DNA of 64,000 bases. Source: Candidatus Pacearchaeota archaeon (GTDB lineage Archaea > Nanobdellota > Nanobdellia > Pacearchaeales > GW2011-AR1). Each line of letters starts with the position of its first letter. The first letter of the stretch is position 1. Positions 14,286 through 46,931 of this stretch are shown here, piece after piece. The stretch covers positions 2,975 to 66,974 of the forward strand of contig JAGVXD010000019.1 of NCBI GenBank assembly GCA_018303945.1. Direction: 5' to 3'. The notes below the pieces were generated by a model. That model was not told the DNA's origin. It saw only the letters and a list, made by a program, of their open reading frames with translations, and searched no databases. Both the position numbers and the translations under genes were made by a program.

Positions 14286-14326
14286 CACTTGATTATAAAG
14301 TTCGCTTTTCATTTTATCTCCTAAAC

Positions 14327-14758: not shown

Positions 14759-15230
14759 TAGGATTTCCTTTCGATCTCCATACAAGTGAAGAATCTTCAT
14801 ATTGATTTTGCAAAGGCAATTTATTTCCTTTTAAGATAGCTTCTAACTCTGCTTGTGTTGCTGTTCTAATATTCTTAGGTTGCAATATTTGATTTGCAAC
14901 TATAACTGCGTATGGGTTAGAGCCCTCTACAACTTTCTTTGTAGAATTCCACTTAAGTATCTTAAGAGCGCTTGCGTCATTATAATCTACTTTTACTACC
15001 CGCTCATATTCTTTCAAGAAATCTTTTCCAAAATCTCCTGATAGAAAGAAAGCTGAGGCGAACGGAATCTGGGGAATTGGAGTATTTGAAGCAGGGGATA
15101 CATCAGGATTTGTTCCAGCATTCTTATCAGGTTCTGGTTCTTTATTTCCTTTACCTTTATCTGGCTTCTCTTGACTTACTCTTTGAGCATAGCGTTCTGC
15201 CCATTGTTTATACAGATCAAAGTTGCTCAT
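14703..15230 (-). CDS. unknown protein A1 (paralog of 17529..18017)
   Basis: Shares MSNFDLYKQWAERYAQRVSQ, a P/K/G-rich linker and a conserved C-terminal domain with A2. Confidence 0.65.
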   Translation of the reverse strand: MSNFDLYKQWAERYAQRVSQEKPDKGKGNKEPEPDKNAGTNPDVSPASNTPIPQIPFASAFFLSGDFGKDFLKEYERVVKVDYNDASALKILKWNSTKKVVEGSNPYAVIVANQILQPKNIRTATQAELEAILKGNKLPLQNQYEDSSLVWRSKGNPNGWLALDFYDQFRGAGKP

Positions 15231-15368: not shown

Positions 15369-17159
15369 TCATGCTGTAGCTCCTGCAATTTTAGGGCTTT
15401 GCTTATAATAACTTGAAACAAAGGAAACCATGCTTCGTGAAAGATCCTCATCGCCTTTTACGTTAATAACTGGAACTCCCAGATCCTTTAGATACGTTGA
15501 AAACGCTGTGTCGCCACCAATTTGAATATGTGCATAATCAGCAGTTCGTATCTTTTGTTCAAAACTAGTTTTTTGAGAGCCATTCATGCTAAATTCTCCA
15601 TCTGAAATAGACAAGACTAAAGCACTATCTTCGATTTCTTTCTCCAAGCCCTCGCTATCAAAGGTAGTAGTTCCTGAGGGTTTTGTTAGCAAGGATTTGG
15701 CGACTAATTCTGATTTTCCACGCACTGCTGATTCTCCTGAGAATCCCAGAACGCTACTTTCAATGTAAGGAGCTACGCCTTGGCGTTCAAAGAAGTTATC
15801 AATGCCAAAATATCCTTTTAATGCGAAATGATATTTACTATTATCTCCCCATGGGATATATGAAGTATTTCCTACTTCTTTTCCATTATCTGAATTAAGA
15901 GCCATACTTCCTGATCTATCCATAAGTGCAAGCTTGAAGTTAGGAAACTGGTGAGGATGTTTCTTGTAAGCAACAGGGTGTTCAACATGATGTTTAGTTG
16001 TCTTTAAACCCATCTCTCCATCAGATTTGAATCCTACTCCTCTGAACTTAAACTTACGTTCATCTTCCTTAACAAATCGTCTCCCATAGCGTACAAGAGG
16101 CATTGCTTGACTTGCTGAGTAATGAGTAGTTTCTACAGGAATTTCCTTAGAAATTTTCTTATAGAGGTCATATAGTTGCTCTTGTAAATCTCTATGTGCA
16201 AGCGGTGCTTCCCCTCCCTGATATCTGCCAAAGGCAATTTCCTGCCTATTAGAAGGCATTTTCATTTCTCGATCAAAAGGATTCTGCTCCTCTGAATTCT
16301 CATCGCCCTCACTTGATCCAAACATTCTTTGTTGCGGTGGCTGATCTTCCAGCAATTTACCTAGATGAACAGCAAAAGAATATCCGAGATTGCTCCATGT
16401 TTTCGCTCTTTGGCGTATATCTGTAGGATCAAACAGCTTTTGGAATCCAGATTTTTCATGTAACTTAAATATCTTCTCTTCTTGGGTAACTGTTCTCATT
16501 TCTCCGAGAAATTGTCCGACTGCTTCTTTTACTTCTGGTTTATCACCAAAGAATCTCTTAAGAAGACTATAGTCTGCTGCTCTTCCTGCAAGCATAAGGT
16601 TAACTTTGACAAAAGCCTCGTAAAAAAGATTATATTTTCCATCCTGCCCATTCACAAGCCCGTGGTTATTCCAAAAAAGAGTTTGGCCTGCAAAATCGGT
16701 ATGTCTCCTGCAATTAATATTATCAAGTACATCTTCAAAAGCATTAGTAACATACTGCTCAAGACCGTTTTTGCCTATCTCTTGCAGTCCTCGTGTTACT
16801 TTGTCCTTGATTCTCTCGTGAGTTTCTAAATCATAGGGGCAACCATATCGTTCTCCTACCTTATTTTCTCTGTGTCCTGCTTCATGGTCGAGTACATCCT
16901 GTCCCGTTTTAAGCAAGGGATCTTTAATCCCTCTAAGAGATGCAAAACGCTTGCTTTCCTCATCAGGCACTAAATCCAAATCTCTTCCATAAGAAAGACT
17001 AATTTCTTTCCAATCTGTTGTAATATGGCCTGCAAAAGTATTTCCAGCAACTTCATCAACATTTAATCTAATTCCAATTAATCCGATCTTGTTTTTTTGC
17101 TGTTCAAGTGCTTGTTTGATGTTTTGAAGTTCGCTTTTCATTTTATCTCCTAAACTCAC
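15369..17159 (-). CDS. vWA-domain protein with N-terminal HExxH metallopeptidase-like motif (MoxR partner; CobT-like architecture)
   Basis: 596 aa with HEAGH at about residue 84 and the MIDAS motif DRSGS (ALMDRSGSM) in the C-terminal third. GTG start. Confidence 0.8.
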   Translation of the reverse strand: MSLGDKMKSELQNIKQALEQQKNKIGLIGIRLNVDEVAGNTFAGHITTDWKEISLSYGRDLDLVPDEESKRFASLRGIKDPLLKTGQDVLDHEAGHRENKVGERYGCPYDLETHERIKDKVTRGLQEIGKNGLEQYVTNAFEDVLDNINCRRHTDFAGQTLFWNNHGLVNGQDGKYNLFYEAFVKVNLMLAGRAADYSLLKRFFGDKPEVKEAVGQFLGEMRTVTQEEKIFKLHEKSGFQKLFDPTDIRQRAKTWSNLGYSFAVHLGKLLEDQPPQQRMFGSSEGDENSEEQNPFDREMKMPSNRQEIAFGRYQGGEAPLAHRDLQEQLYDLYKKISKEIPVETTHYSASQAMPLVRYGRRFVKEDERKFKFRGVGFKSDGEMGLKTTKHHVEHPVAYKKHPHQFPNFKLALMDRSGSMALNSDNGKEVGNTSYIPWGDNSKYHFALKGYFGIDNFFERQGVAPYIESSVLGFSGESAVRGKSELVAKSLLTKPSGTTTFDSEGLEKEIEDSALVLSISDGEFSMNGSQKTSFEQKIRTADYAHIQIGGDTAFSTYLKDLGVPVINVKGDEDLSRSMVSFVSSYYKQSPKIAGATA

Positions 17160-17557
17160 GGCTTTTGCGCGGCGGCTGCGCCGCTAATGCAAACTACCCG
17201 ACCAGCCTCATACGAGCCGGCGAGAACCCCGCCCCTAGCGAAGAGATCCAAGTCCCTGATGAGGTACAACCTCGAAAGTCCTGAATTTCTAGTCCATAAT
17301 TGTCTGTTCCCTGGAACAGCATTCTCATAGACTTTCTTCGGTAGTCCAGTATTGGTATCAACTTCTCCAGCTTTAACATATAATCCGTCTTTACTCATAA
17401 GTATATGAGCTTCAAAATAAAGAGGAGTATAAAGAAGTTCTTTCTTTAAATTAAATGCTAGTTTATTAGGCGCCTTATTTTCTTTCCTCAATGAAAGTCC
17501 ATATAAAGGTAGCACATAAGCAGTATTTTCAAGCGAGCCAACTATTAGGATCTGCAT
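17156..17557 (-). CDS. unknown protein B2
   Basis: Paralog of B1. It overlaps the A2 3' end by 29 nt and the vWA gene start by 4 nt. Confidence 0.55.
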   Translation of the reverse strand: MQILIVGSLENTAYVLPLYGLSLRKENKAPNKLAFNLKKELLYTPLYFEAHILMSKDGLYVKAGEVDTNTGLPKKVYENAVPGNRQLWTRNSGLSRLYLIRDLDLFARGGVLAGSYEAGRVVCISGAAAAQKP

Positions 17558-18017
17558 TAGATCTCCACACGAGAGAAGATTCTACATAATGATTTCCTTT
17601 GATAGGTAATGTATTTGCCTGTGCAATTTTCTCTAACTCTGCTTGTGTAGCAGTTCTGATTCCACTTTTCTCAAGAATCATGTTAGAAAGAACAACTGCA
17701 AAAGGATTTGAGCCCGTTACTTTTTGATTGGCATCATCCCAATTAAGAACTTGCAAAGCTGAGGCATTATTATAATCTTTCTTAACTCTTGCGTTATATT
17801 CCTTTAGAAAGTCTTTTCCAAATTGTCCTTTCAAAAATGAAGCACTCCCAAAAGTATGGGGAACAACAAGAGGAGTGGTTGCATTTGAATCAGGTTGACT
17901 TCCAGCATCTGGCTTAGAATCTGCTTTTTTTCCTTTTCCACCTTTGTCTGGTTGTCCTTGACTTACTCTTTGAGCATAGCGTTCTGCCCATTGCTTGTAA
18001 AGGTCGAAATTACTCAT
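17529..18017 (-). CDS. unknown protein A2
   Basis: Paralog of A1. It starts 2 nt after the MoxR stop. Confidence 0.65.
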   Translation of the reverse strand: MSNFDLYKQWAERYAQRVSQGQPDKGGKGKKADSKPDAGSQPDSNATTPLVVPHTFGSASFLKGQFGKDFLKEYNARVKKDYNNASALQVLNWDDANQKVTGSNPFAVVLSNMILEKSGIRTATQAELEKIAQANTLPIKGNHYVESSLVWRSNADPNSWLA

Positions 18018-18019: not shown

Positions 18020-19336
18020 TTATTTCCTCCCTTGTTCTCTTGCTCTTTCAATAATCTCTCGTAATTTGGCCTTTTCTGGATTTTTATCATTCTTCATGAT
18101 TGATGCATAATCTTGAATTGCTTCTTTTACTGGTGTCCAACGACCCTTAACTGATGCAACATCGTTGAGCAAATCTGCATCAGTTATACCTGCTTCTGCT
18201 AAAGCTACAGCTTCCTCAAGCTTAGAAACTCTCTCGAGTATTTCTCTTCGATTGCCTGAATTTTGGCCGAAAAGAGTATCAAAAGCTGAATAAACATCCC
18301 CATTATGTTCTTGGTCTATGTACATTGGAGCAATAACTCCTGAATAAGGAACAGTCAATCGTAAGGCGTCAAGAAATAAATTAGAAGTGGTTGGCTGTTT
18401 TCCTTTTGCTTCTGCAATCATTTGCAAAGCCCCAGTTAACCCGATAGCAGAAAGTACTCCTCTTGGAGAAAATGGAAATACTTTGTTTTCATCAATATCT
18501 GTTCTAATACCTTCCAAATTTGGCCAGCGAGCATCGCATTTAGCTTTGCTATTGCCTTTTACATTTTCCAAATAATCTAAACCTTCCGTAAAATAAAGTC
18601 CTAAAATAGGAAGAAGAGGATACGTTTCTCGTTCTCCAAATTCCTTATGTAATGCAAGAATATCTTCTTTTGAAACTTGTGCCTCATTAGGCATGTCAGA
18701 TCTAGGATTTTTCTTTCCTTTGAACACACTTAAAAGATTTTGAGGTGTCGGCCTATAATCAGGATGATCCAACTTAACAATCATATGCATTCTATCTTTT
18801 AATGCTCTATCTGAATCTGAAACACCTACATATTCTCCATTTCCAAGATTTCCAGTTGCAAAACCAATGCTATAGCCATCAGTTCCTAAATTGAGAATTT
18901 TTCCATCATGAACTAATTTTCCATCAAAGAAGTCAAAGAAATAGTTCTGGACAATAGGTGGAGCCCTATTTAATTCGTCAATAAAGAAAAGATTTTTTCG
19001 CACGTTTTCAGTTAACTCTACAAGCTCTCGATCGGTTTTTGCATCCTTAAGACTCCCTAACCTCACTTGTTTTAAAAGTTCAGAAGGTTCAAAATCTGGG
19101 CGACCCATTGCATAACAGGCAGAATCATTAAAATAGCTCAAAAGATCATGTCCAAGTTGAGTCTTACCTCTTCCTGTTCCTCCCACATAATAGACATTTA
19201 ATCTTGCAATCAAAGGAGCTTTTACCAAAACATCTCGTGCACTATAGGCAACACCACCAAGAGAGATCTCTCTATCGTTGGAGTATCTTCCTGCCTCTAA
19301 TCGTTCAATTGCCTGCTTTGATTTATCTGATACCAT
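18020..19336 (-). CDS. MoxR-family AAA+ ATPase (CobS-like)
   Basis: 438 aa with Walker A GGTGRGKT and the MoxR-typical Walker B FFIDELNRAPP. Confidence 0.85.
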   Translation of the reverse strand: MVSDKSKQAIERLEAGRYSNDREISLGGVAYSARDVLVKAPLIARLNVYYVGGTGRGKTQLGHDLLSYFNDSACYAMGRPDFEPSELLKQVRLGSLKDAKTDRELVELTENVRKNLFFIDELNRAPPIVQNYFFDFFDGKLVHDGKILNLGTDGYSIGFATGNLGNGEYVGVSDSDRALKDRMHMIVKLDHPDYRPTPQNLLSVFKGKKNPRSDMPNEAQVSKEDILALHKEFGERETYPLLPILGLYFTEGLDYLENVKGNSKAKCDARWPNLEGIRTDIDENKVFPFSPRGVLSAIGLTGALQMIAEAKGKQPTTSNLFLDALRLTVPYSGVIAPMYIDQEHNGDVYSAFDTLFGQNSGNRREILERVSKLEEAVALAEAGITDADLLNDVASVKGRWTPVKEAIQDYASIMKNDKNPEKAKLREIIERAREQGRK

Positions 19337-20645: not shown

Positions 20646-21257
20646 ATGAGAAAATTAAAGATTTTAGCGGCTTCTGACATAGAAGGAGATTCAAAACTAG
20701 CAAGAAAACTTGCCGAGAAAGCAGAAAGGGAGAAAGTGGATCTTGTAGTATTGTGCGGAGACCTTACAGGCTATGTGGAGACTAAAAACCTCATTAAGCC
20801 CTTTAAGGATAAAAAGAAAAAGGTGCTGATAATACCTGGAAATCACGATTCTTTCGCTACTGTGGACTTCCTTGCTGCAATGTATGGGGTAAGCAACATA
20901 CATGGTTATTCCGTCCAATACGAGCATGTTGGATTTTTTGGAGCTGGAGGGGCAGCAAACACCCCCTTTTTCCCAGGAGCTGTGACAGAAGAAGAAATAT
21001 TCGAGACTTTAAAAAAGGCGCATGCTGGCCTTAAAGGCATAGAAAAAAAGATAATGGTAACTCACATGCATCCTGCAGGCAGTCTCTCGGAATTTTCAGG
21101 AGTTGAGGGAAGCAAGGCTATATCTAAAGCCATAAAGCAATTCAAACCCGATATCCTTTTACATGGTCACATTCACGAAGCTTCTGGCTTTGAGCAGAAA
21201 ATAGGAACAACTAGAGTGATAAATGTAGGCAGAGAAGGTCAGATTATTGAACTCTAA
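20646..21257 (+). CDS. metallophosphoesterase (calcineurin-like)
   Basis: Motifs SDIEGD, GDLTG, GNHD and GHIHE. Confidence 0.8.
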   Translation: MRKLKILAASDIEGDSKLARKLAEKAEREKVDLVVLCGDLTGYVETKNLIKPFKDKKKKVLIIPGNHDSFATVDFLAAMYGVSNIHGYSVQYEHVGFFGAGGAANTPFFPGAVTEEEIFETLKKAHAGLKGIEKKIMVTHMHPAGSLSEFSGVEGSKAISKAIKQFKPDILLHGHIHEASGFEQKIGTTRVINVGREGQIIEL

Positions 21258-21380
21258 ATATAATAAGATTACTCAAATATTGCGTTCTTCCGCTACATAC
21301 GATATTTACAGAAGCCGCTCACCAAACTGAAATTAAAAAATAAGTGGCGATTTGGGCTAATTTCTGTCTTTTATGAGAAA

Positions 21381-21526
21381 AGTTGCCGAAGGCAAAAGAA
21401 ATTACCTCTTAATCTGCTGTTGCTTGACCTGAAGCGAAGCGGAAGGCACGAGTGGAGCAAGAAGCGACCTCGTGAGTGAAAGTTTTGTTCTCAGCCGATT
21501 TCGTAGCGTAGTTGCTGAAGAGAAAC
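21381..21526. repeat. structured element, upstream arm U1 (divergent type)
   Basis: Contains CCTCTTAATCTGCTGTT, GCGAAGC, the hairpin CACGAG..CTCGTG, and GTTCTCAGCCGATTTCG.AGCGTAGTTGCTGAAGAGAAA. Confidence 0.75.
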
Positions 21527-21540
21527 ATATTTAATATTAG
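21527..21540 (+). promoter_or_regulatory. TATA-like box about 20-30 nt upstream of the cassette ORF1 ATG
   Basis: ATATTTAATATTAG. The same spacing is seen for ORF2 and ORF3 and for the peptide gene on the - strand. Confidence 0.35.
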
Positions 21541-21556
21541 GCAAATTATCAATATT

Positions 21557-21922
21557 ATGAAATCCAAGATAAAATCTTTAAGCAGGAATGAGCAACGGAC
21601 AATTATTGTTTTTGAAATGAACAATCAAATTATAAAAATTATTGAAAAAACATTTAAGAAATTAAAGTCCGATTTTGAATTGTCAGATTATAAGAAAAAA
21701 TATGGAGATAAAATTATTGACAATTCTTGGGAGTTAAATAAGAAAGATGAGGACTTTAATTTTAGTCTAGTTGCGAAAAAAGATTTTGTGAAATTGAAAC
21801 TAAAAGCAAGCTTGGATTTCGTAAACAAGTTTTTGAAAATTCTGGAAAATGATACAGAATTTTCCGAATTATTGCCTAAGATTAAAGCAAAATTAGAAAG
21901 GCGAAAATTCAAATTTCTCTAA
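21557..21922 (+). CDS. cassette ORF1, Lys-rich hypothetical protein (121 aa from ATG 21557)
   Basis: ORF enclosed by the U1 and D1 arms. Its last codons and stop pair with U1. Confidence 0.5.
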   Translation: MKSKIKSLSRNEQRTIIVFEMNNQIIKIIEKTFKKLKSDFELSDYKKKYGDKIIDNSWELNKKDEDFNFSLVAKKDFVKLKLKASLDFVNKFLKILENDTEFSELLPKIKAKLERRKFKFL

Positions 21923-22260
21923 AGCAATTTCGTTAAAGCTTTGTTAGACAAAGTTGCATAGCAATTTTGTGAGTTTTCTCTGTGTGGCTTTAACGAAGCG
22001 AGAAATAACAAGGCTGAGAATTGCTCACAGCCAAAAGGACAGGAAGAGGGGAAACTAAAACTCTATGTCGGAAATTGGGGGGAAGGTGAGCAACCGCAGG
22101 CAAAACTTTCATTTTGGGCAACGTCGCGATTAAGGAAAGTTTTTTCTTCCTCGAGGAGCGAAGCGACGAAGAAGTTTTCAAAAATCCGTCATCAAGGGCG
22201 AAGCTCCATAAATTCAAATGTTTTAGAGAGGGAACTTTTATTTTCATTTATTAACTTTAA
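21918..22260. repeat. structured element, downstream arm D1
   Basis: AGCAATTTCGTTAAAGC...GCTTTAACGAAGCGAGAAATAACAAGGCTGAGAATTGC followed by a GCGAAGC-containing tail. Confidence 0.75.
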
Positions 22261-22311
22261 AGTAGTAGATCAATCAAAAGCTTTATAAATAAGTTATGGG
22301 TAACTATTTGC

Positions 22312-22965
22312 ATGAGATTATATCAAAGAATTATTGCGGGTGGATTAGTAGTTGCAGGTTTAGCTGGACTGCTTGGTTGCGATAATGATAGACCGAGAAC
22401 AGAAGAGCCAAAACCCAAATCTGTTGCTGCTGTAGAACTTTATCCGCATGGAAATGCAGGTGTAGCAATTGGAGATATAACAGGCGATAAATTGCCTGAT
22501 CTTGTTATTGCTGCTGAAAAGATTATAGAAAGAGAAGCAGTAGTTTATGTTTCTGACAATAGAGGAAATTATCAATTTGGAAATCCAACATTAATTGCTT
22601 CTGTTCCCCTTTATGGAGGTGGAAGAGAACTAATTTTTGGTGGAGGTTCTCCTGGTCTTGATGTTGCTTTAGGAGACTTTGATAATGACGGAGACTTAGA
22701 TATTTTAGTTGCAGCTGAGAAGCTTGATAAAAAAGAAGCGGCAATATTCAGAATAGAAAATCTAGGAAATAATACTTATTCAAATCCAAAACACGTTGGA
22801 GATGTTCCATTGGCTACTGCCGGAGGATTGAGTATAGCGACACAAGATATTAACCAAGATGGAAGAACAGACATATTAGTTTCTGCCGAGCATCCAAGCA
22901 AAAGAGAAGCAAATATGTATTTTTTTGAAAATGAAGGCAATAATTCTTTTGAAGCTGTAAAGTAA
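22312..22965 (+). CDS. FG-GAP/VCBS-repeat lipoprotein
   Basis: Lipobox-like LLGC, and three repeats of the form GD(I/F)xxDGxxDI(L)V.AE(K/H). Confidence 0.75.
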   Translation: MRLYQRIIAGGLVVAGLAGLLGCDNDRPRTEEPKPKSVAAVELYPHGNAGVAIGDITGDKLPDLVIAAEKIIEREAVVYVSDNRGNYQFGNPTLIASVPLYGGGRELIFGGGSPGLDVALGDFDNDGDLDILVAAEKLDKKEAAIFRIENLGNNTYSNPKHVGDVPLATAGGLSIATQDINQDGRTDILVSAEHPSKREANMYFFENEGNNSFEAVK

Positions 22966-22995
22966 ATTTCTTTTTCGCAGAAAAAGACTATCTGT
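22963..22995. repeat. 33-bp direct repeat DR-left (TAAATTTCTTTTTCGCAGAAAAAGACTATCTGT)
   Basis: Matches 25150-25182 at 32 of 33 positions. It contains the hairpin TCTTTTTC/GAAAAAGA. Confidence 0.85.
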
Positions 22996-23335
22996 CTGCA
23001 GGACTAAAAGTTCCCCCCCTTTCTATTTTTTAGGATTTTTGAAAATTGAAACTAACATCGGCATTAAGAGAAGTTTTCCGAAGGAAAATTTGGGCAAAAT
23101 CCTGCAAGGATTTTCCTCTTAATCGCTGTTATGTCTGGGTGAGCGAAGCGAAAGGGTGCAACCCTTCCCCGAGGATTTTTTCAGCAGAAAAAACCGCAGA
23201 GTTGTGAGATGGCACTTGTATTAATTTTAAAGATGGCACTTCAGGACGGCGGGACGCTGTCCAAATAAATAAGAGCTGTGCGCGTCTTTTTTGCTTCTTT
23301 TTTTCTAAAAAAGAAGATGGGCACTTTTCCGTTTG
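22996..23335. repeat. structured element X (U1-related) with AGATGGCACTT direct repeats
   Basis: Shares AAGTT..CCGAAGG, CCTCTTAATCGCTGTT and GAGCGAAGCGAAAGG with U1. AGATGGCACTT occurs at 23207 and 23231. Confidence 0.65.
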
Positions 23336-23338
23336 TTT

Positions 23339-24349
23339 TTAAAAATCCCTCCATTCAATCCCTAAATCCATAAAGTCTATTTCTGCAAATCTATTAAGAT
23401 TTATTCTGCCTTTTCTTGTAAGATATTTAAAAATTTCCATTGTTTGAATGTTTGCTACTGCTCCCGCAATTGGTCCAAGGTTTCCTGTTTGTCTAATGTC
23501 TCTTATTTTTTCTAAATCTTTTAAGGGGTCCATTCTTTTCTGATATTCTATGAAATCATCAAAAGTTTTAGTAACTCCTGGAATGATGATTGGACCAACC
23601 ATCCCTAAGTGTAGATTATATCCTCCTGCAACACAATAAGCAACTCCATGCTGATTAGCATATCCATCAATTATTTTTGTTGTTTCTACAACTGAAGGAG
23701 AATCAGCGCAATTTACTAAAAAATTACAACCAGAAACAATCTCTTCGAGATTTTGATTTGCATCTACTCTTTTTGTGAATGTCTTAATATTTGCATCTTT
23801 TAATTTTTCTTTTACAACATCAACTTTATACTTGCCAACATCACCAGAATCAAAAAATAATTGCCTGTTAAAATTACTATCATCTACAACGTCAGGGTCA
23901 GTAATTCTTATTTCTCCCGCCCCAATTTGGTATAGCCCATTTACAATCCAAGTTCCAATTCCACCTACTCCAAAGACAGCAACTTTAGAGTTCTCTATTC
24001 TTTTTTGTAGCTCTAAGGTTTCTTCCCTTGAATCTGTAAGTTCGTCCAAAAATAACAATTGCTTGTAATGTCTTCCTTTTTCTAAATCAGATTCATATCT
24101 TCTAATTATCCCTTCTTTTTCTAAAGCATTTAAACAAGCATTTATGTCTTGAGAACTATATTTAGAAGATAATCTTTCAGTTAAATCTTGTTCTGTTTGC
24201 TCAGAATCAAGAGAAGCAATCACATCCTTAACTAAAGAATCTACTTGAAATTTTTTTATTCTTCGTGTTGCAGTTGAAATAAAAATATAATTATCTTCGG
24301 TGTCTCTCAAGATATACGATGAATCTTTGAGTTTTAATCTACTCTTCAT
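23339..24349 (-). CDS. E1-like adenylyltransferase (ThiF/MoeB/MccB family) with N-terminal PqqD/RRE-like peptide-binding domain
   Basis: Nucleotide-binding loop FGVGGIGTWIVNGL plus DPDVVDDSNFNRQ. The roughly 95-aa N-terminal segment fits the wHTH/RRE pattern. No CxxC zinc site is seen. Confidence 0.8.
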   Translation of the reverse strand: MKSRLKLKDSSYILRDTEDNYIFISTATRRIKKFQVDSLVKDVIASLDSEQTEQDLTERLSSKYSSQDINACLNALEKEGIIRRYESDLEKGRHYKQLLFLDELTDSREETLELQKRIENSKVAVFGVGGIGTWIVNGLYQIGAGEIRITDPDVVDDSNFNRQLFFDSGDVGKYKVDVVKEKLKDANIKTFTKRVDANQNLEEIVSGCNFLVNCADSPSVVETTKIIDGYANQHGVAYCVAGGYNLHLGMVGPIIIPGVTKTFDDFIEYQKRMDPLKDLEKIRDIRQTGNLGPIAGAVANIQTMEIFKYLTRKGRINLNRFAEIDFMDLGIEWRDF

Positions 24350-25118: not shown

Positions 25119-25149
25119 TTTATTGTTCTGAATGCGAAAAGTGCCCAAA

Positions 25150-25182
25150 TAAATTTCTTTTTCGAAGAAAAAGACTATCTGT
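25150..25182. repeat. 33-bp direct repeat DR-right
   Basis: TAAATTTCTTTTTCGAAGAAAAAGACTATCTGT, with one mismatch to 22963-22995. Confidence 0.85.
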
Positions 25183-25206: not shown

Positions 25207-25242
25207 ACATCTCCAATTTAGGGGACATCTCCAATTTAGGGG
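25207..25242. repeat. perfect tandem repeat 2 x 18 nt (ACATCTCCAATTTAGGGG)
   Basis: Read directly. It lies between DR-right and the recombinase gene. Confidence 0.8.
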
Positions 25243-25326
25243 AGGGTGGTCGGGGGTATTGAAATGCCATCTTTAACTATCTTTTAATTCTAAAGTTTAG
25301 TGCCTTCGAACAATTAGACATAACAT

Positions 25327-25358
25327 TATGGTATCATGAATTAACTCATGATACCATA
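25327..25358. promoter_or_regulatory. 13-bp-arm palindrome TATGGTATCATGA-n6-TCATGATACCATA upstream of the recombinase gene (operator-like)
   Basis: Perfect inverted repeat about 55 nt upstream of the ATG at 25411. Confidence 0.45.
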
Positions 25359-25410: not shown

Positions 25411-26220
25411 ATGGATAAAGAAGAGGCATTAAGGAAGCTTGGGCAAGAGATTGAAATACGCAATTTTTCACGGAAAACTCTAAAGGGCTATGTTCATTCA
25501 GTAAGTAAGTTTTGCGATTATCTAAAAGACAAACCTTTTAGTCAGGAAGAGGTTAAGAATTATGTCCAAATGCAGATAAAAAAGCATAATCCCTCTTCTG
25601 TAGCTCACGAGATCTTTGCTATTCAATTTTTCTTTGATAAAGTCCTAGGCAGAAAAATTTATGTTCCAAGGCCAAAAAGAAACAAAACACTCCCAGATAT
25701 ATTAACAAGAGATGAAGCATTGGCATTGGTAAACGCGCCTGTGAACATAAAGCACAGATTGATACTAAAGCTACTCTATGGGTGTGGGCTAAGAGTCTCA
25801 GAGGTAATAAGCCTAAATAAAGACGATTTGAACTTCAATGAAAAGCTAATGCATGTCAGATTAGCAAAGGGTAAAAAAGATAGATTTGTCAGGATTCCAG
25901 ATTCAGTTACAAAAGAATTGGAAAATTACTGCAATTTATTAAATGAAGATGTCCTCTTCCCTTCAAACAGGGGCGGAAGACTGACAACTGCAACAATTCA
26001 GGCAATTGTTGAACAATCTGCTAAAAAGGCAGGTATCACAAAAGAGGTTTATCCTCATCTTTTAAGACATTCGTTTGCAACTCACTTACTAGAATCCGGC
26101 ACCGATTTACGAATAATCCAAAAATTGCTGGGACACTCAGATATAAAAACAACCCAGATTTACACTCGAATATCTCAAGCATCAATCAAAAATATAAAAA
26201 GTCCGCTTGATTCATCATAA
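25411..26220 (+). CDS. tyrosine recombinase, XerA/XerCD-like
   Basis: 269 aa with an N-terminal SAM-like domain, GCGLRVSEV, HLLRHSFATHLL, LGHSDIKTTQIYT, and the catalytic R, HxxR, H and Y. No IntI-type insertion is evident. Confidence 0.9.
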   Translation: MDKEEALRKLGQEIEIRNFSRKTLKGYVHSVSKFCDYLKDKPFSQEEVKNYVQMQIKKHNPSSVAHEIFAIQFFFDKVLGRKIYVPRPKRNKTLPDILTRDEALALVNAPVNIKHRLILKLLYGCGLRVSEVISLNKDDLNFNEKLMHVRLAKGKKDRFVRIPDSVTKELENYCNLLNEDVLFPSNRGGRLTTATIQAIVEQSAKKAGITKEVYPHLLRHSFATHLLESGTDLRIIQKLLGHSDIKTTQIYTRISQASIKNIKSPLDSS

Positions 26221-36715: not shown

Positions 36716-36719
36716 TAAT

Positions 36720-36953
36720 ATGACAAAAAATATGGAAATGCACTACGACGAAGAAGCAGACTATCTGGAGATTTTTGTAGGCGAACCTCGTGAGGATTAT
36801 GGAGAACATATCTCAAAAGATATTGTTATCTTTAAGTATGAAGACAACGGTCAATTATATGGGGTGGGTATCTTTAATTTCAAGAAAAGGGCATCTGATT
36901 TGAAAGACGTGCTCAGCAAACTTCCTGTTTCTATAAAGATAGAACCAAATTAA
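36720..36953 (+). CDS. DUF2283-family protein (antitoxin-like partner)
   Basis: HYDEEADYLEIFVGEP... is a signature N-terminus for this family. Confidence 0.6.
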   Translation: MTKNMEMHYDEEADYLEIFVGEPREDYGEHISKDIVIFKYEDNGQLYGVGIFNFKKRASDLKDVLSKLPVSIKIEPN

Positions 36954-37010
36954 TTTCTTCTGTTTGTCAGTATAGAATGAAAATTACAGCGTCTATCGGT
37001 TCAAATTAAG

Positions 37011-37146
37011 AGAACATTTTAGGATAAAATGAATAAGCTGCCGTTTAGCAGTGATTAAGTGACCCTTTAGGGCAAGAGTGGGCTTCGAAAGACCCTCTTG
37101 TGTTTAGATTCGTTCTCAGCCGATTTCTCGCGTAATTGCTAAAACT
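37011..37146. repeat. structured element, upstream arm U2
   Basis: GCCGTTTAGCAGTGATTAAG, CCCTTTAGGG, CAAGAGTGGGCTTCGAAAGACCCTCTTG and GTTCTCAGCCGATTTCTCGCGTAATTGCT. Confidence 0.8.
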
Positions 37147-37170
37147 ATTAAGAGGTAACAAATAGAAAGA

Positions 37171-37178
37171 TTTATAAA
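37171..37178 (+). promoter_or_regulatory. TATA-like box (TTTATAAA) 22 nt upstream of the ORF2 ATG
   Basis: Position and composition only. Confidence 0.35.
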
Positions 37179-37199
37179 GAACGAATTTTGTAGATTTTT

Positions 37200-37484
37200 A
37201 TGCAAACAAACAGAGTATACGTGATTCCAGAAGCAAAAGTCGGCGACGAAAGAAAAACTGTCGTGATGAGAAGCCAATTTGGGGCAAGCCTTGCTTTAGG
37301 AATTTCAAAAGATGTAACTGCTGCTTATGAAGTGGAAGCTAGAAATTGTTCTCATCAAGAATTGTATACTGCAGTTACTAAGGTTGTAAAAAGAAGCAAG
37401 ATTACAGAGTTAGAGGCTTCTCTTCAAGAATTTTGCAATGTTTTTAGTATGTCGGTAACAAAATTAGTCCCAACACAAGCATAA
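37200..37484 (+). CDS. cassette ORF2, hypothetical protein (94 aa)
   Basis: ORF enclosed by U2 and D2. No similarity to ORF1 or ORF3 by eye. Confidence 0.55.
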   Translation: MQTNRVYVIPEAKVGDERKTVVMRSQFGASLALGISKDVTAAYEVEARNCSHQELYTAVTKVVKRSKITELEASLQEFCNVFSMSVTKLVPTQA

Positions 37485-37500
37485 TCTTTCTATTATTTTA

Positions 37501-37728
37501 TTCATCAGCAATTTCGTTTAAGCAAGCGATTGTGCGTTAACGAAGTTCGCACCCAGCGGTTAAGCGGAGCAAGAAATAACAAGGCTGAGAATTGCAAGCC
37601 GAAAGGGGCAAGAGTTTACAGGCAATAATTAATTTGTTACTATGAAAACTCTGAAGGGAAAGGGGCTTGTTTGTCTAGGGGATTTGCAACCCGAGTGCAA
37701 CGAGGGCAAAGCAAAAGTTTGGTTAATC
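37501..37728. repeat. structured element, downstream arm D2
   Basis: About 93 nt are identical to D3 (CAGCAATTTCGTTTAAGC...GGCTGAGAATTGCAA). The distal part is conserved and ends in GGTTAATC. Confidence 0.85.
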
Positions 37729-37809
37729 TATCAGGCTAAAAGAACTTTCAAAGGCAATTATTATCTAAAAATTTTTTGAAAGTTACAAAAAATTATGCTT
37801 CTTACAAAA

Positions 37810-37945
37810 AGAACATTATTGGAAATAATGAATAATTTTCCTTTTAGCAGTGATTAGGCGAGTTGCTTGCAACCTCGAGCTAGCCACAAAGGCTCTCGAG
37901 TTACAAAATCTGTGCGAAATCTTTTCCTGAGTGTAATTTCTAAGC
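37810..37945. repeat. orphan upstream-arm variant U2-prime
   Basis: Same 5' motif (AGAACATT..TTTAGCAGTGATTAGG). The central hairpin is replaced by CTCGAG-CTAGCCACAAAGGCT-CTCGAG. Confidence 0.65.
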
Positions 37946-38028
37946 TATCTTTATTTAGTAAGAAGTTATTGGGTGGGAAATATTCACAGGGCGCGAGGTT
38001 TTTTCGTAAGGGGGCTGACTGTTTTCAG

Positions 38029-38280: not shown

Positions 38281-38283
38281 CTT

Positions 38284-40039: not shown

Positions 40040-40180
40040 ACTTAATTATGTGTAAACACATATTTAAACATTTCTACTTTTGATTCTGTTAACTTAAGGC
40101 CCCTCATAGGATCTATCTCTTTTATGCAACTCCAGAGGAATCGAGATACCTCAAGAATTTGCAATTCTTGATGACACCCA

Positions 40181-40309
40181 AGAACACAGGGTTCTTGGTG
40201 TTTGCCGTTTACTTGTGATTAAGCGTCCCTTTGGGGCAAGAGCGGGCTTCGAAAGACCCTCTTGTGCTTAGATTCGTTCTCAGCCGATTTCGAGCGTAAT
40301 TGCTGAAAC
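40181..40309. repeat. structured element, upstream arm U3
   Basis: GCCGTTTACTTGTGATTAAG, CCCTTTGGGG, CAAGAGCGGGCTTCGAAAGACCCTCTTG and GTTCTCAGCCGATTTCGAGCGTAATTGCTGAAAC. Confidence 0.85.
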
Positions 40310-40333
40310 TATGGAGAAGTAACAAGAGAAATG

Positions 40334-40341
40334 TTTAAATA
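40334..40341 (+). promoter_or_regulatory. TATA-like box (TTTAAATA) 22 nt upstream of the ORF3 ATG
   Basis: Position and composition only. Confidence 0.35.
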
Positions 40342-40362
40342 TTCCATAAATTATAAGACTAT

Positions 40363-40632
40363 ATGGCTGATAGATTAAAGGTATATGCAATTTATGGGAA
40401 AGGACAAACTAATGAGGCCTCAAAGTCACTTTGTGATTATAGTGTAGGGCATACTGAAGAAGAGGCAGTTGAAAATGCTATAAACTTAAATCCTCGTTTG
40501 AGATTATTACACGATCTAAATGCTACTCAGATTGCCGTTAGAGGATTTAGAATTTCAGCCGAATCATTAGAGCAAGAAGCCAGAAATAATTTTCATGCGG
40601 CAGTTCATCGTGGTCGTGGCACTTGGTACTAA
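40363..40632 (+). CDS. cassette ORF3, hypothetical protein (89 aa)
   Basis: ORF enclosed by U3 and D3. Confidence 0.55.
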   Translation: MADRLKVYAIYGKGQTNEASKSLCDYSVGHTEEEAVENAINLNPRLRLLHDLNATQIAVRGFRISAESLEQEARNNFHAAVHRGRGTWY

Positions 40633-40640
40633 TTTTATTT

Positions 40641-40879
40641 GTTTCAGCAATTTCGTTTAAGCAAGCGATTGTGCGTTAACGAAGTTCGCACCCAGCGGTT
40701 AAGCGGAGCAAGAAATAACAAGGCTGAGAATTGCAACCGAAAGGGAAAGATTTTACGGGCAATAGTTTATTTATTATTATGTAAAATCAGGAGGGAGTGG
40801 GGAAACTCAAAGCATATTAGGGGATAGCAACCCGAATAAAACGAAGTGGAACGAGGGCAAAGAAGAAGTTTGGTTAATC
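40641..40879. repeat. structured element, downstream arm D3
   Basis: It starts with GTTTCAGCAATT, the perfect complement of 40298-40309, contains GGCTGAGAA, the complement of 40277-40285, and ends in GGTTAATC. Confidence 0.85.
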
Positions 40880-40937
40880 CTACGTTTTAACCGAACATTG
40901 TTTGAGCCATACTTTAATCTTAAGGTAAGATGGAATA

Positions 40938-46522: not shown

Positions 46523-46750
46523 CTATCTTTTTTTGTATATTATATCTTGATGGTCAAAATCATCAAAGTTTATTGTATCTGTTGTTTTATCATATTGAAA
46601 AACAAGAACAAAATGCCCCCTAACGAAAAAACGGCGCGTGCCCCAAAACTCTAATTTTACTCTGCTTAGCAGTTTTTGATATTTTTTAACTCTCAGAAAA
46701 ATCTTCGGCATTTTTGCTTCGCAAAACCGATTGCATCTATGTCTCGTCAT
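46523..46750 (-). CDS. RelE/ParE-like toxin remnant (solitary, tentative)
   Basis: The C-terminus FVRGHFVLVFQYDKTTDTINFDDFDHQDIIYKK has the RelE-like pattern. No partner gene was seen. Confidence 0.3.
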   Translation of the reverse strand: MTRHRCNRFCEAKMPKIFLRVKKYQKLLSRVKLEFWGTRRFFVRGHFVLVFQYDKTTDTINFDDFDHQDIIYKKR

Positions 46751-46931
46751 TCCAAGTATTCACGAGAGTTGAACAGGCATTAACAGGCTCACTGCGTTGC
46801 ACTTTTTCGACCCAAATCTCTCACTTACTTTATAATTTAAATTTTGGTGAGCGACTTCTATAAATGTATCATGTTATACACAATTTGAGAGCGCTCGCAA
46901 GAACGGAGTGCCTGCACGATATAAGAAGATT

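What the first reader, a model, noticed from the sequence alone, without database searches (positions are those of the whole stretch)
21381..22260. Diverged copy of the bracket element: conserved outer helix, covarying inner helix that includes the ORF stop codon
U1 ends with GTTCTCAGCCGATTTCGTAGCGTAGTTGCTGAAGAGAAA. D1 starts inside the last codons of ORF1 with AAATTTCTCTAAAGCAATTTCG. The outer pair TTCTCAGCC/GGCTGAGAA (21488-21496 and 22011-22019) is unchanged. The inner helix reads GTTGCT..AGAGAAA against TTTCTCT..AGCAAT, pairing 13 of 15 positions. The equivalent helix in locus 3 is AATTGCTGAAAC/GTTTCAGCAATT, so the extension beyond TTGCT has changed on both strands. The next helix is also preserved with changes: TTCGTTAAAGC...GCTTTAACGAA here, versus TTCGTT-T-AA...TTAACGAA in loci 2 and 3. 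D1 is followed by a reverse-context FG-GAP lipoprotein gene and then by another U1-like element (22996-23335).
Basis: seen in the sequence. Interest (0 to 1): 0.7.

Follow-up and report, generated by a model that had tools for sequence, protein, structure and literature searches.

The report
Structured bracket around variable archaeal genes
The flagged region is one copy of an undescribed family of about 0.5 kb of folded non-coding sequence that encloses a single, unrelated gene at each copy in Pacearchaeota (DPANN archaea), behaves like an exchangeable gene cassette and tends to sit next to the chromosome's Xer recombination site.

Summary
An inner helix (21510-25 with 21914-29; 14 of 16 positions) contains the ORF1 stop codon. 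Both score far above shuffles.

I recovered 18 non-identical brackets from metagenomes. Each holds a different ORF of 78-253 aa with its own BRE/TATA-like box. Across them 88.6% of cells pair and covariation exceeds all 500 shuffles. The inner helix has 8 pairs changed on both sides and the adjacent hairpin 4. G·U outnumbers A·C 43 to 9, so the ORF-sense strand folds.

Nothing matches Rfam, and the ORFs match nothing or unrelated enzyme families. ORF1 homologs also occur without a bracket.

The units form tandem arrays. They swap cargo at a syntenic site, form chimeras, and one 870-nt unit is about 99-100% identical between different flanks. In several genomes the 3' arm abuts a 12-6-12 palindrome (probable dif) upstream of xerA; the window keeps only a remnant there.

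Best reading: a new family of structured, probably RNA-level, arms defining exchangeable single-gene cassettes. An integron-like or Xer-dependent single-stranded DNA site is the main rival. Function is inferred, not shown.

The parts
21291..21349 (+). pre-U: a TACAT junction motif with 15 nt resembling a dif left arm (21295-21314), then hairpin P_b (CGCTCAC 21316-21322 with GTGGCG 21344-21349)
   Evidence: An HMM of type-A 5' domains hits 21291-21422 at E = 3e-30. P_b covaries in 7 of its pairs. The junction motif is shared with the dif loci.
21350..21474 (+). U 5' domain. It holds ATTTGGGC; helix P1 (21358-65 with 21397-404) enclosing hairpins at 21368-82 and 21383-95; CCTCTTAATC at 21405-14; a GCGAAGC mini-hairpin at 21431-46; and hairpin CACGAG..CTCGTG at 21447-74.
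   Evidence: RNAalifold on 6 type-A copies finds 18 of 37 pairs with compensatory double changes.
21488..21496 (+). H1 5' strand, TTCTCAGCC (the outer helix)
   Evidence: Pairs with 22012-22020. 93-98% of cells pair in 18 loci. The duplex beats shuffles.
21498..21502 (+). H2 5' strand, ATTTC
   Evidence: Pairs with GAAAT at 22002-22006. 100% of cells pair.
21510..21525 (+). H4 5' strand, AGTTGCTGAAGAGAAA (the inner helix that closes off the cargo)
   Evidence: 8 of 16 pairs change on both sides across the loci. -17.0 kcal/mol against -8.7 for shuffles.
21530..21537 (+). TATA-like box TTTAATAT, about 27 nt before the ORF1 ATG and inside the bracket
   Evidence: Read from the sequence. A TATA-like box lies about 27-30 nt before the ATG at loci 2 and 3, and A/T-rich boxes precede the other cargoes.
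21557..21922 (+). Cargo ORF1 (121 aa). A real conserved protein of unknown function with low GC (22-27%).
   Evidence: 35 homologs at 61-99% identity. No Pfam or PHROG family. GC.
21914..21929 (+). H4 3' strand, TTTCTCTAAAGCAATT, which includes the ORF1 stop codon at 21920-21922
21930..21996 (+). H5 hairpin (TCGTTAAAGC 21930-39 with GCTTTAACGA 21987-96). It completes a three-way junction with H2 and H4.
   Evidence: 94% of cells pair and 4 pairs change on both sides, for example C-G to A-U and U-A to A-U.
22002..22020 (+). H2 3' strand GAAAT (22002-06), a 5-nt bulge, then H1 3' strand GGCTGAGAA (22012-20)
22021..22095 (+). H6 domain: TTGCTCAC (22021-28) with GTGAGCAA (22086-93) enclosing G-rich loops, followed by the conserved GCAACC
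   Evidence: The helix is replaced by TTACTTGC/GCAAGTAA in L020, L046 and L051 (alignments). It is also predicted in the single-sequence fold.
22112..22146 (+). D-end: TTTTGGGC, then AACGT, then CGCGATTAAGGAAAG, then a T6 run. It has the same organisation as a pre-U site. In locus 1 it can pair with CCTCTTAATC..GCTGTTGC (21405-21423) and so close the whole unit.
   Evidence: The T-run reading as a terminator is an inference.
22277..22987 (+). Second cargo without its own H1/H2/H4 helices: BRE/TATA-like AAAGCTTTATAAAT (22277-90), the FG-GAP lipoprotein ORF (22312-22965), and a hairpin after the stop codon (22963-87)
   Evidence: Pfam FG-GAP at 1.5e-19. L018 has the same arms and the following element without this gene.
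23045..23305 (+). Stand-alone S element: ATTGAAACTAACAT junction, P_a, P_b, ATTTGGGC, its own tail and T-runs at the end.
   Evidence: The type-A 5'-domain HMM hits it at E = 3e-12. Anatomy.
25328..25357 (.). Probable dif site: the 12-6-12 palindrome ATGGTATCATGA-ATTAAC-TCATGATACCAT, 54 nt upstream of xerA. The region just upstream of it, from the G-rich motif near 25246, is a remnant of a D 3' domain.
   Evidence: Unique in the window, with 0 expected by chance. The same palindrome sits upstream of xerA in L043 and L052-L055 and after the D-end in L046.
25411..26220 (+). xerA, an archaeal Xer tyrosine recombinase
   Evidence: NCBIfam NF040815 scores 239 bits against a cut-off of 220. The integron-integrase model scores below its cut-off. 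The best PDB matches are 4a8e and 5hxy, both XerA.
36915..37902 (+). Locus 2 (type B): pre-U and U 36915-37159, cargo ORF 37200-37484, D 37496-37731, then a following partial U' at 37705-37902
40170..40925 (+). Locus 3 (type B): U truncated at its 5' end 40170-40323, cargo ORF 40363-40632, D 40636-40884, and a pre-U remnant up to 40925
46600..46879 (-). A second stand-alone S element, on the minus strand, ending in GGGGCACGCGCCG followed by a T6 run
   Evidence: E = 5e-17.

Best explanation
Window 21291-22146 is one unit of a family specific to a Pacearchaeota/Nanoarchaeota lineage, which I call bracket cassettes.

A unit has four parts: a structured 5' arm of about 240 nt, a BRE/TATA-like box, one accessory ORF, and a structured 3' arm of 230-300 nt. 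The last 40 nt or so of the 5' arm pairs across the ORF with the first part of the 3' arm. The pairing consists of H1 (9 bp), H2 (5 bp) and H4 (8-16 bp). Together with hairpin H5 it forms a three-way junction that shuts the gene into a loop.

Shown:
- The helices are real. They are kept by compensatory and G-U changes, and the ORF-sense strand is the one that folds.
- Both arms are themselves rich in covarying hairpins.
- The cargo is unrelated from copy to copy.
- Units occur in tandem arrays, exchange cargo and recombine into chimeras.
- Type-A units pile up immediately upstream of a dif-like palindrome and xerA.

Inferred:
- The folded molecule is a sense RNA that runs from the 5' arm through the ORF to the T-run after the 3' arm.
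- In that RNA the arms act in cis as a closing scaffold, for example in 5'-3' end protection, processing, or control of a mostly leaderless message.
- The arms are the only conserved sequence around otherwise unrelated genes, so they also provide the substrate for cassette exchange and stacking. That exchange could be homologous or assisted by XerA at the AACAT/dif junction.
For: Pairing and covariation in 18 loci: 88.6% of cells pair against 84.3 +/- 0.7 in shuffles (0 of 500 as high). The covariation score is 0.195 against 0.123 (0 of 500). Cells changed on both sides number 46 against 22.5. Controls with the partner slid by 1-3 columns give 28-51% paired. An independent RNAalifold run returns the same helices.

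Strand polarity: G·T 43 cells against A·C 9 in the core, and 18 against 5 in the type-A 5' domain (my count from the table). The two changes between the window and L018 in these helices both create G·U on the sense strand.

5' arm: 18 of 37 predicted pairs show compensatory changes in only 6 sequences.

Co-loss: L017 keeps ORF1 (84% identity) but lacks both strands of H1 and H2.

RNA-like features: the arms are GC-rich (0.40-0.46) against ORF1 at 0.22-0.27. T-runs follow the S elements and the D-end. Seventeen of 18 cargo ORFs are co-oriented with the arms.

Cassette behaviour: tandem arrays in L023, L024 and L036. Different cargo sits at a site syntenic with window locus 2. An 870-nt unit is about 99-100% identical between unrelated flanks. 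Reciprocal H1 chimeras occur in L023a and L036b. Cargo families are unrelated to each other.

dif/xerA link.
Against: Each cargo has its own TATA-like box inside the bracket, about 27-30 nt before the ATG where I measured it. The main mRNA may therefore start downstream of the 5' arm and could not form H1, H2 or H4 in cis.

No transcript data are available.

Two 3' arms occur with no cognate 5' strand (L024a, L036a), and two brackets carry central H1 mismatches. Closure is therefore not strictly required, at least in the short term.

One cargo (L034) is inverted.

H1 and H2 show no compensated double changes. Their 3' strands were fixed by my search pattern.

The GCGAAGC mini-hairpins and the link to dif would equally fit a single-stranded DNA substrate.

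All sequences come from one narrow lineage, so the covarying cells are not independent events.
Confidence: 0.42

Rival explanations
1. The fold is a DNA-level recombination site. In this reading the arms fold in single-stranded DNA into a structure-specific site for the XerA tyrosine recombinase. This would be analogous to integron attC hairpins or to the folded attP(+) of phage CTX. The bracket across the ORF corresponds to the R'...R'' geometry of an integron cassette.
For: In L043 and L020/L026 a xerA gene lies on the same strand about 50-90 nt after the end of the 3'-arm match. The window itself has a 3'-arm remnant, then a dif-like palindrome, then xerA.

Every type-A unit starts with the same left flank plus AACAT that precedes dif. 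Homology to dif is lost at the border between the arm and the central region, which is where Xer enzymes cleave.

The base of the inner helix is constant, while its variable extension usually matches the 3' arm of the same cargo (pairing falls off outward, and L023b is non-cognate). Integron cassettes show the same pattern at R'/R''.

Supporting points are single-ORF arrays, toxin-antitoxin genes inside the arrays, and d(GCGAAGC)-type mini-hairpins. CTX is a precedent for Xer acting on folded single-stranded DNA (cited in PMC5357621).
Against: The recombinase is an ordinary XerA without the extra domain specific to integron integrases.

The window holds only one full dif-like site. The internal junction sequences, such as CGCGATTAAGAG, do not resemble the dif arm.

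The element is 5-8 times longer than an attC site. It has many conserved, covarying internal domains that a recombination site would not need.

The wobble pattern points to the ORF-sense (top) strand, whereas attC sites recombine through the bottom strand.

Type-B loci at 37-41 kb lie 12-15 kb from dif and lack the AACAT motif.

Nothing in a roughly 1-kb unit would generate single-stranded circles.
Confidence: 0.27
2. The conserved arms are a multicopy non-coding RNA gene (the S family). The promoter-plus-ORF modules are passengers inserted into the tip of one of its hairpins (H4). The ORF-bearing loop is removed from the RNA, like an archaeal ORF-containing intron, or is simply tolerated.
For: Stand-alone S copies exist with their own T-run ends at 23045-23305 and on the minus strand at 46879-46600.

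In 8 loci H4 continues into a second helix (AGAAAGATTTA with TAAATCTTTCT), with one compensatory variant. This looks like the remains of a long hairpin split by the cargo.

Cargo can sit in either orientation (L034). Group I and BHB introns that carry ORFs are known in DPANN rRNA genes (PMC6125680).
Against: None of about 27 matches to the 3' arm lacks a cargo, so no empty form was found.

The S elements share only the 5' domain with brackets and have a different tail.

There is no bulge-helix-bulge motif: the junction is a 9-bp helix, a 5-nt bulge, a 5-bp helix, then a three-way junction.

The region has no Rfam intron match even at E <= 10.

The 5' domain is duplicated on both sides of the units, which excision of an intron would not explain.
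Confidence: 0.15
3. The bracket is a non-autonomous DNA transposon, either a mobile insertion cassette or a MITE carrying a passenger gene. The arms would be the transposon ends, mobilised in trans by an unidentified transposase. The pairing between arms would be a by-product of terminal inverted repeats.
For: Conserved ends flank variable passenger genes. There are several copies per genome. One identical unit occurs between different flanks. AACAT is repeated at both ends of type-A units.
Against: The complementary segments are internal, interrupted by a conserved branch hairpin, and maintained by G·U pairs on one strand only.

The arms are asymmetric, about 240 and 260 nt long, and share no similarity beyond H1, H2 and H4.

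I saw no target-site duplication at the H4 borders.

No transposase was seen among the called genes of the fetched loci or in the ORF lists.

The boundaries of the exchanged unit fall inside the bracket, not at its ends.
Confidence: 0.08

Closest known systems
Integron gene cassettes with attC sites (including the archaeal integrons of Ghaly et al. 2022, PMC9668308)
   Same: Both have single-ORF units in co-oriented tandem arrays. In both, the site is defined by secondary structure. In both, inverted complementary segments bracket each ORF, and the variable part usually matches that cassette's own downstream site. Both are associated with a tyrosine recombinase gene, and both carry toxin-antitoxin genes within the arrays.
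   Different: There is no IntI: the recombinase is a housekeeping XerA without the extra domain. The element is about 500 nt with many conserved domains, against 57-141 nt (my recollection of the usual attC size) for a simple hairpin. The order GTTAAAG...CTTTAAC is the reverse of R''...R'. The cargoes carry their own promoter-like boxes. The wobble pattern favours the top strand, not the bottom strand.
IMEX elements and Xer-dependent modules (CTX and TLC phages at dif; pdif modules on Acinetobacter plasmids; the xerS/difSL linked module)
   Same: Units accumulate directly beside a dif-like site that is genetically linked to the single Xer gene. The chromosomal left flank of dif is repeated at the unit junctions. 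Units are small and stack in tandem.
   Different: Full dif-like sites do not flank each unit. The internal junctions do not look like Xer-binding arms. Type-B copies lie away from dif. The arms are large, structured and conserved. No phage or plasmid functions are present.
Structured RNAs that carry an ORF in a peripheral loop (group I and II introns, archaeal BHB introns with homing-endonuclease genes, tmRNA)
   Same: A multi-helix core is assembled from sequence on both sides of an ORF, and a closing helix sits at the ORF borders. In 6 of 18 loci the stop codon lies inside that helix.
   Different: There is no Rfam match, no exon context (the elements are intergenic), no BHB motif and no P3-P7-type pseudoknot. 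The cargo is not an endonuclease, reverse transcriptase or tag peptide. It differs at every copy and has its own promoter-like box.
Mobile insertion cassettes and MITEs (for example MIC231; recalled from memory, not checked here)
   Same: Conserved non-coding ends enclose unrelated passenger genes, and no transposase is encoded inside.
   Different: The ends are not simple terminal inverted repeats. Covariation and G·U pairs show selection for folding of one strand. No target-site duplication and no parent insertion sequence were found.

Membership tests
Integron (IntI plus attC cassettes) | An integrase of the IntI type, carrying the extra domain around patch III | tested here: not met
   The protein at window 25411-26220 passes the archaeal XerA model (239 bits against a cut-off of 220). 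It fails the integron-integrase model (198 bits against 265, matched in two stretches), and it is only 269 aa long. The best solved structures are XerA.
Integron (IntI plus attC cassettes) | An attC site: R'' (RYYYAAC)...R' (GTTRRRY) in that order, as a single imperfect hairpin (57-141 nt by my recollection) | tested here: not met
   The only GTT/AAC-type repeat (H5) reads GTTAAAG...CTTTAAC on either strand. The element is about 500 nt and has at least 8 helices. No attC covariance model was available to run.
Integron (IntI plus attC cassettes) | Tandem arrays of mostly co-oriented single-ORF cassettes | tested here: met
   L023, L024 and L036 carry arrays. Seventeen of 18 cargoes are co-oriented with the arms.
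IMEX / Xer-exploiting element | Integrated at the chromosomal dif site | tested here: inconclusive
   The 3' arm directly abuts a dif-like palindrome in L043 and L046, and a different palindrome in L020. A remnant of the 3' arm precedes the palindrome in the window. That the palindrome is dif is inferred from its 12-6-12 form, its uniqueness and its conservation upstream of xerA in seven genomes (window, L043, L052-L055 upstream of xerA; L046 after the D-end). Type-B loci are not at dif.
IMEX / Xer-exploiting element | The element is bounded by dif-like sites created by Xer strand exchange | tested here: inconclusive
   The left junctions keep the dif left flank plus AACAT and about 15 nt in the position of the arm. 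Only some of these (L018, L043, L050, window) resemble the arm. No second full site exists in the window.
Group I or group II intron | A match to the catalytic core models, and insertion within a host gene | tested here: not met
   Rfam 15 returns no intron hit at the gathering threshold. At E <= 10 the only hit is a 15.8-bit group-II fragment at 23060-23112. The flanks are unrelated genes, not exons. Caveat: the inserted ORF could reduce sensitivity.
Archaeal bulge-helix-bulge (BHB) intron or circularised RNA | Two 3-nt bulges on opposite strands, separated by a 4-bp helix, at the excision borders | tested here: not met
   The consensus reads as a 9-bp helix, then a 5-nt bulge (3' strand) with one unpaired G (5' strand), then a 5-bp helix, then a three-way junction. 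H4 is a continuous helix or has a 2x2 internal loop. Relaxed BHL-type motifs were not excluded.
MITE or mobile insertion cassette | Terminal inverted repeats at the element ends, a target-site duplication, and a cognate transposase family | tested here: not met
   The complementary segments are internal and branched. No duplication appears at the H4 borders. No transposase was seen among the called genes of the fetched loci or in the ORF lists. The AACAT repeat at the ends of type-A units remains unexplained.
Any curated RNA family (Rfam 15) | A covariance-model match | tested here: not met
   Across the whole window only tRNAs pass the gathering threshold. Scans at E <= 10 of 21200-23400 and 36900-41000 give only noise hits.

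The most novel reading that the evidence does not exclude
These elements are a new class of large (about 0.5 kb), multi-domain structured nucleic acid that defines, encloses and mobilises single genes in DPANN archaea. One form of this reading is an 'RNA-bracketed gene cassette', whose arms both fold around the message and direct its exchange. The other is an archaeal, Xer-linked counterpart of the integron, with giant structured attachment sites and the chromosomal dif/xerA module as its platform.
Probability: 0.35. Interest if true: 0.9.

Novelty: new variant of a known kind. Interest (0 to 1): 0.75.

Why it matters
Pacearchaeota and other DPANN archaea have tiny genomes and few recognised mobile elements. 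How they acquire and shuffle accessory genes is largely unknown.

Here a single conserved, heavily structured element accounts for at least seven copies or remnants in 64 kb. It wraps unrelated small genes, many of which look like membrane or secreted proteins from their sequences (not tested), and several with enzyme domains. It shows direct signs of cassette turnover. It is also tied to the probable chromosome-dimer resolution site.

If the arms work as RNA, this would be a new large structured RNA class with an embedded, exchangeable ORF. If they work as DNA, it would be a gene-capture platform distinct from integrons and built on housekeeping Xer recombination. Either result would make gene flux in these uncultivated symbionts open to experimental test.

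The dif-like palindrome next to xerA is a useful by-product. As far as I found, it would be the first case of a dif site linked to xerA in archaea.

Tried and rejected
Public collection scans. The 19-mer GAAATAACAAGGCTGAGAA gave one chance hit inside a phage gene in viral contigs. In representative genomes it gave seven chance hits in bacteria, none with the partner motif. The family is therefore not detectably present in the GTDB representative genomes, at least with this exact 19-mer.

Rfam at the gathering threshold and at E <= 10 found nothing.

Pfam and PHROGs found no family for the three window cargo ORFs.

Group I intron. GTTCTCAGCC..GATTTC superficially resembles the R element. I rejected this because H2 pairs locally rather than forming a P3-P7 pseudoknot, there is no Rfam hit, and there are no exons.

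I also rejected a group II intron (domain sizes and topology do not fit), a BHB intron (no 3-4-3 motif), and RNase P, SRP, tmRNA or tRNA-like RNAs (no model hits, and the element is multicopy).

Canonical integron. Rejected on the nature of the recombinase and the geometry of attC (PMC9668308).

The idea that the second inner helix (AGAAAGATTTA with TAAATCTTTCT) is merely the organism's generic promoter plus terminator. The motif is only about twice as frequent as chance in the window, and one locus has a compensatory variant. The question stays open.

The idea that the 3'-arm strands pair with the next unit's 5' arm rather than their own. In the L023 array neither partner fits the variant H1, and the H4 extension matches the same-cargo partner in most loci. 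This remains unresolved for the conserved parts of the helices.

A search for additional dif-like sites flanking the cassettes found none.

Literature searches for a prior description found none.
Full report
**Setting**

The window is a low-GC archaeal genome. It has intron-containing tRNA genes. Its XerA protein is 100% identical to a protein that NCBI assigns to Candidatus Pacearchaeota. One ORF1 homolog is labelled Nanoarchaeota.

**The observation at locus 1**

- H1: TTCTCAGCC at 21488-96 pairs with GGCTGAGAA at 22012-20.
- H2: ATTTC at 21498-502 pairs with GAAAT at 22002-06.
- H4: AGTTGCTGAAGAGAAA at 21510-25 pairs with TTTCTCTAAAGCAATT at 21914-29. It runs 7 bp, a 2x2 loop, then 7 bp. 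The ORF1 stop codon (21920-22) lies inside it.
- H5: TCGTTAAAGC at 21930-39 pairs with GCTTTAACGA at 21987-96.

Taken alone, the inner and outer duplexes beat dinucleotide shuffles (4 of 2000 and 9 of 2000 as good). They also beat 652 of 655 equally spaced segment pairs from the same window. The two arms joined without the ORF fold with z = -4.4. The arms have a GC content of 0.40-0.46, while ORF1 has 0.22-0.27.

**A family, not three copies**

The three loci in the window share an invariant GTTCTCAGCCGATTTC upstream, and AGCAATTTCGTT plus AGAAATAACAAGGCTGAGAATTGC downstream.

Rfam has no match for these regions.

A metagenome scan with AGAAATNNNAAGGCTGAGAATT returned 32 loci. Eighteen of them are true copies that also carry the partner motifs. 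nhmmer profiles then found further copies inside those loci.

Every bracket contains one ORF of 78-253 aa. No two cargo families are alike. They include an FcoT-like thioesterase, a polysaccharide deacetylase, a metallo-beta-lactamase-fold protein and many small proteins of unknown function.

Two subtypes exist. Type A includes locus 1, and type B includes loci 2 and 3.

**Structure and covariation**

I aligned the core of 18 non-identical brackets, with the ORF replaced by N6 (alignment A5). On that alignment the four helices behave as follows.

| Measure | Observed | Shuffled | Shuffles at least as high |
|---|---|---|---|
| Cells forming a standard pair | 88.6% | 84.3 +/- 0.7% | 0 of 500 |
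| Covariation score | 0.195 | 0.123 | 0 of 500 |
| Cells changed on both sides | 46 | 22.5 | 0 of 500 |

Sliding the 3' partners by 1-3 columns drops pairing to 28-51%.

H4 has a constant base (AATTGCTG/CAGCAATT) and an extension that changes on both strands. Examples are GAAAC/GTTTC, GAAGA/TCTTC, GATGT/ACATC, CCAAC/GTTGG and CTAAG/CTTAG. In all, 8 pairs show double changes. H5 has 4 such pairs. RNAalifold finds the same helices without my input.

H1 and H2 are nearly invariant. This is partly ascertainment, because my search pattern fixed their 3' strands.

G·T cells outnumber A·C cells 43 to 9. Three G·U positions are fixed in 8-11 sequences, and no A·C position is fixed. The ORF-sense strand is therefore the one under selection to fold.

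The 5' arm is itself highly structured. In six type-A copies, 18 of 37 predicted pairs carry compensatory changes. A further helix in the 3' arm, H6 (TTGCTCAC/GTGAGCAA), is replaced by TTACTTGC/GCAAGTAA in other copies.

**ORF1 homologs elsewhere**

ORF1 is a real gene, with 35 homologs at 61-99% identity, all about 121 aa. The bracket does not always accompany it.

- L016 (essentially the same genome) and L018/L019 (84% identity) have the bracket.
- L009-L015 (63-79% identity) have none. In L009-L011 the neighbouring genes are only 16-112 nt away.
- L017 (84% identity) keeps stubs of the arms but lacks both strands of H1 and H2.

So the ORF does not need the bracket. The joint loss of both strands in L017 fits the view that H1 and H2 act as a pair.

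The unit starts at about 21291. Its parts, in order, are:

1. a junction motif (left flank plus AACAT);
2. about 15 nt;
3. hairpin P_b, which covaries in at least 7 variants;
4. ATTTGGG;
5. helix P1 with two hairpins;
6. a conserved single strand;
7. further hairpins;
8. the 5' strands of H1, H2 and H4.

The end of each 3' arm has the same organisation as this start, so each 3' arm runs directly into the next 5' arm. Most type-B 3' arms with sequence downstream are followed about 50 nt later by a 5' arm whose last third is degenerate. I call this U'. Examples are window 37782-37902 and L040, L047 and L036.

Stand-alone versions, which I call S, end in T-runs. They lie at 23045-23305 and, on the minus strand, at 46879-46600.

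Inside the bracket each cargo has an A/T-rich box upstream of its ATG, about 27-30 nt upstream at the three window loci. In 8 loci the block (GGTAAC)AATAGAAAGATTTAWAA is complementary to TAAATCTTTCTAT just after the stop codon. L049 carries a compensatory variant of this pairing. In L034 the cargo is inverted and appears to use the copy on the 3'-arm side as its promoter.

**Cassette behaviour**

- Tandem arrays exist. L023 reads U-cargo-D-U-cargo-D-U', and L024 and L036 also carry arrays.
- Window locus 2 and L036b share their arms and a downstream RelE-type toxin-antitoxin pair at about 78% identity, yet they hold unrelated cargo.
- A unit of about 870 nt is 99-100% identical in L023 and L036, while both flanks differ. 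The unit runs from TAAAGGTAAC, just after the H4 5' strand, through the promoter box, cargo and 3' arm to the end of the following U'.
- L023a combines a TTCTCAGCC 5' arm with a GGCTTCGAA 3' arm. L036b combines TTCGAAGCC with GGCTGAGAA. These look like the two products of a reciprocal exchange.
- Some 3' arms occur without a proper 5' partner (L024a, L036a). The intact 5' strands never occur without a 3' arm.

**Link to dif and xerA**

The recombinase at 25411-26220 is an archaeal XerA, not an integron integrase.

Fifty-four nt upstream of it lies ATGGTATCATGA-ATTAAC-TCATGATACCAT. This palindrome is unique in the window. The same palindrome, with symmetric arm changes, sits upstream of xerA in L043, L052, L053, L054 and L055, and after the 3' arm in L046.

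It has the form of a dif site: arms of 11-12 bp and a 6-bp spacer (the definition is in PMC2958812). Its linkage to the recombinase gene recalls the xerS/difSL module (PMC5357621).

In L043, L046 and L020/L026 a type-A 3' arm ends directly at this palindrome or, in L020, at a lineage-specific one. In the window, from the G-rich motif near 25246 up to the palindrome, the sequence is a remnant of a 3' arm.

Across genomes the region upstream of dif is variable. It holds a restriction-modification system, a Fic gene or thyA in different genomes.

All type-A unit starts carry the left flank of dif plus AACAT. Similarity to dif stops at the border between the arm and the central region. This fits repeated insertion beside or at dif. 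However, the internal junctions do not resemble Xer-binding arms, and type-B loci lie 12-15 kb away from dif.

**Interpretation**

Chance and simple paralogy are excluded as explanations for the pairing.

What is shown is a new family of large structured elements that are absent from Rfam and that I could not find in the literature. Their two arms pair across a variable, promoter-bearing gene. They behave as exchangeable cassettes with a hot spot at dif/xerA.

What is inferred is the molecule that folds. I favour a sense RNA (confidence about 0.4). The reasons are the sense-strand wobble bias, the many conserved hairpin domains, the GC enrichment, the T-runs at unit ends and the co-orientation of the cargo.

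The internal promoter boxes, the half-brackets and chimeras, the GCGAAGC mini-hairpins and the dif linkage keep a single-stranded DNA recombination-site model alive (about 0.27). Smaller shares go to two further readings: an ncRNA gene with ORF insertions (0.15) and a non-autonomous transposon (0.08).

The element fails the membership tests for integrons, for group I, group II and BHB introns, and for MITEs. The IMEX tests were inconclusive. It works most like a gene cassette.

**Limits**

All homologs come from one narrow lineage, so the covarying cells are not independent events. The H1/H2 3' strands were fixed by the search pattern. No expression data were available. The dif assignment is inferential.

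Noticed in passing
window 25328-25357 (also L052 ~1210-1250, L053-L055 ~3900-3950, L043, L046): A unique 12-6-12 palindrome, ATGGTATCATGA-ATTAAC-TCATGATACCAT, lies 54 nt upstream of xerA. It is conserved, with symmetric arm changes, upstream of xerA in five other Pacearchaeota loci and after the D-end in L046. It is probably the dif site, genetically linked to its recombinase. This differs from Thermococcales, where dif is not next to xerA (PMC2958812).
   Followed up: partly
window 22960-22995 and 25147-25182; L055 about 100 nt upstream of its palindrome: A 36-nt hairpin-containing repeat (A[AG]TAAATTTCTTTTTCG.AGAAAAAGACTATCTGT, 94% identical between copies) follows the FG-GAP gene and recurs upstream of the dif-like site. 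A similar sequence lies upstream of dif in L055. It may mark a duplication junction.
   Followed up: partly
window 25208-25262: The 18-mer CATCTCCAATTTAGGGGA is repeated in tandem. It is followed by the G-rich GGGTGGTCGGGGGTAT, which matches the variant 3'-arm domain seen in L018, L049 and L034.
   Followed up: no
window 46600-46879 (- strand) and 23045-23305 (+): These are stand-alone S elements. They have the 5' domain of the bracket family, their own tail, and a T-run at the end. They look like small RNA genes or resident landing sites.
   Followed up: partly
window 36344-36953; L024 1058-1593: A small two-gene module (no family search run; it looks like a DUF4258/DUF2283-type toxin-antitoxin pair) sits between a pre-U-like remnant and the 5' arm of locus 2. 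Apparent homologs of both genes (judged by eye from the N-terminal sequences) lie between a 3' arm and the next 5' arm in L024. Further apparent toxin-antitoxin pairs (judged by eye, no family search) lie at 38029-38520 (RelE-like) and 39403-40039 (PIN-like).
   Followed up: no
window 10229-10381 and 12522-12647: Rfam finds two tRNA genes of 153 and 126 nt, so both contain long introns. ARAGORN misses them.
   Followed up: no
window 57505-57570 and 58945-59010: A perfect 66-nt inverted repeat with 1374 nt between its arms. It could be an insertion sequence or an invertible segment.
   Followed up: no
window 960-1021, 7986-8047, 60280-60341: Three copies of a 62-nt repeat with internal dyad symmetry (TATGGATAACTGCA...GGCAGTTATCC). 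This is an unrelated small repeat family.
   Followed up: no
window 14293-15230 versus 17122-18017: A diverged duplication of about 0.9 kb (74-84% identity). Its second copy ends a few bases before the AAA_5 ATPase gene (18020-19336).
   Followed up: no
window 46313-46359 and 49511-49557: A 47-nt hairpin-forming repeat, 94% identical between its two copies, which lie 3.2 kb apart.
   Followed up: no
window 40060-40087 versus 40315-40342: In locus 3 the stretch between H4 and the cargo TATA-like box is 82% complementary over 28 nt to a segment upstream of the truncated 5' arm. It may be an alternative pairing or a rearrangement scar.
   Followed up: no
window 21557-21922: ORF1 has a GC content of 22-27%, against 35-44% in neighbouring genes. 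This fits a foreign or recently acquired cargo.
   Followed up: partly
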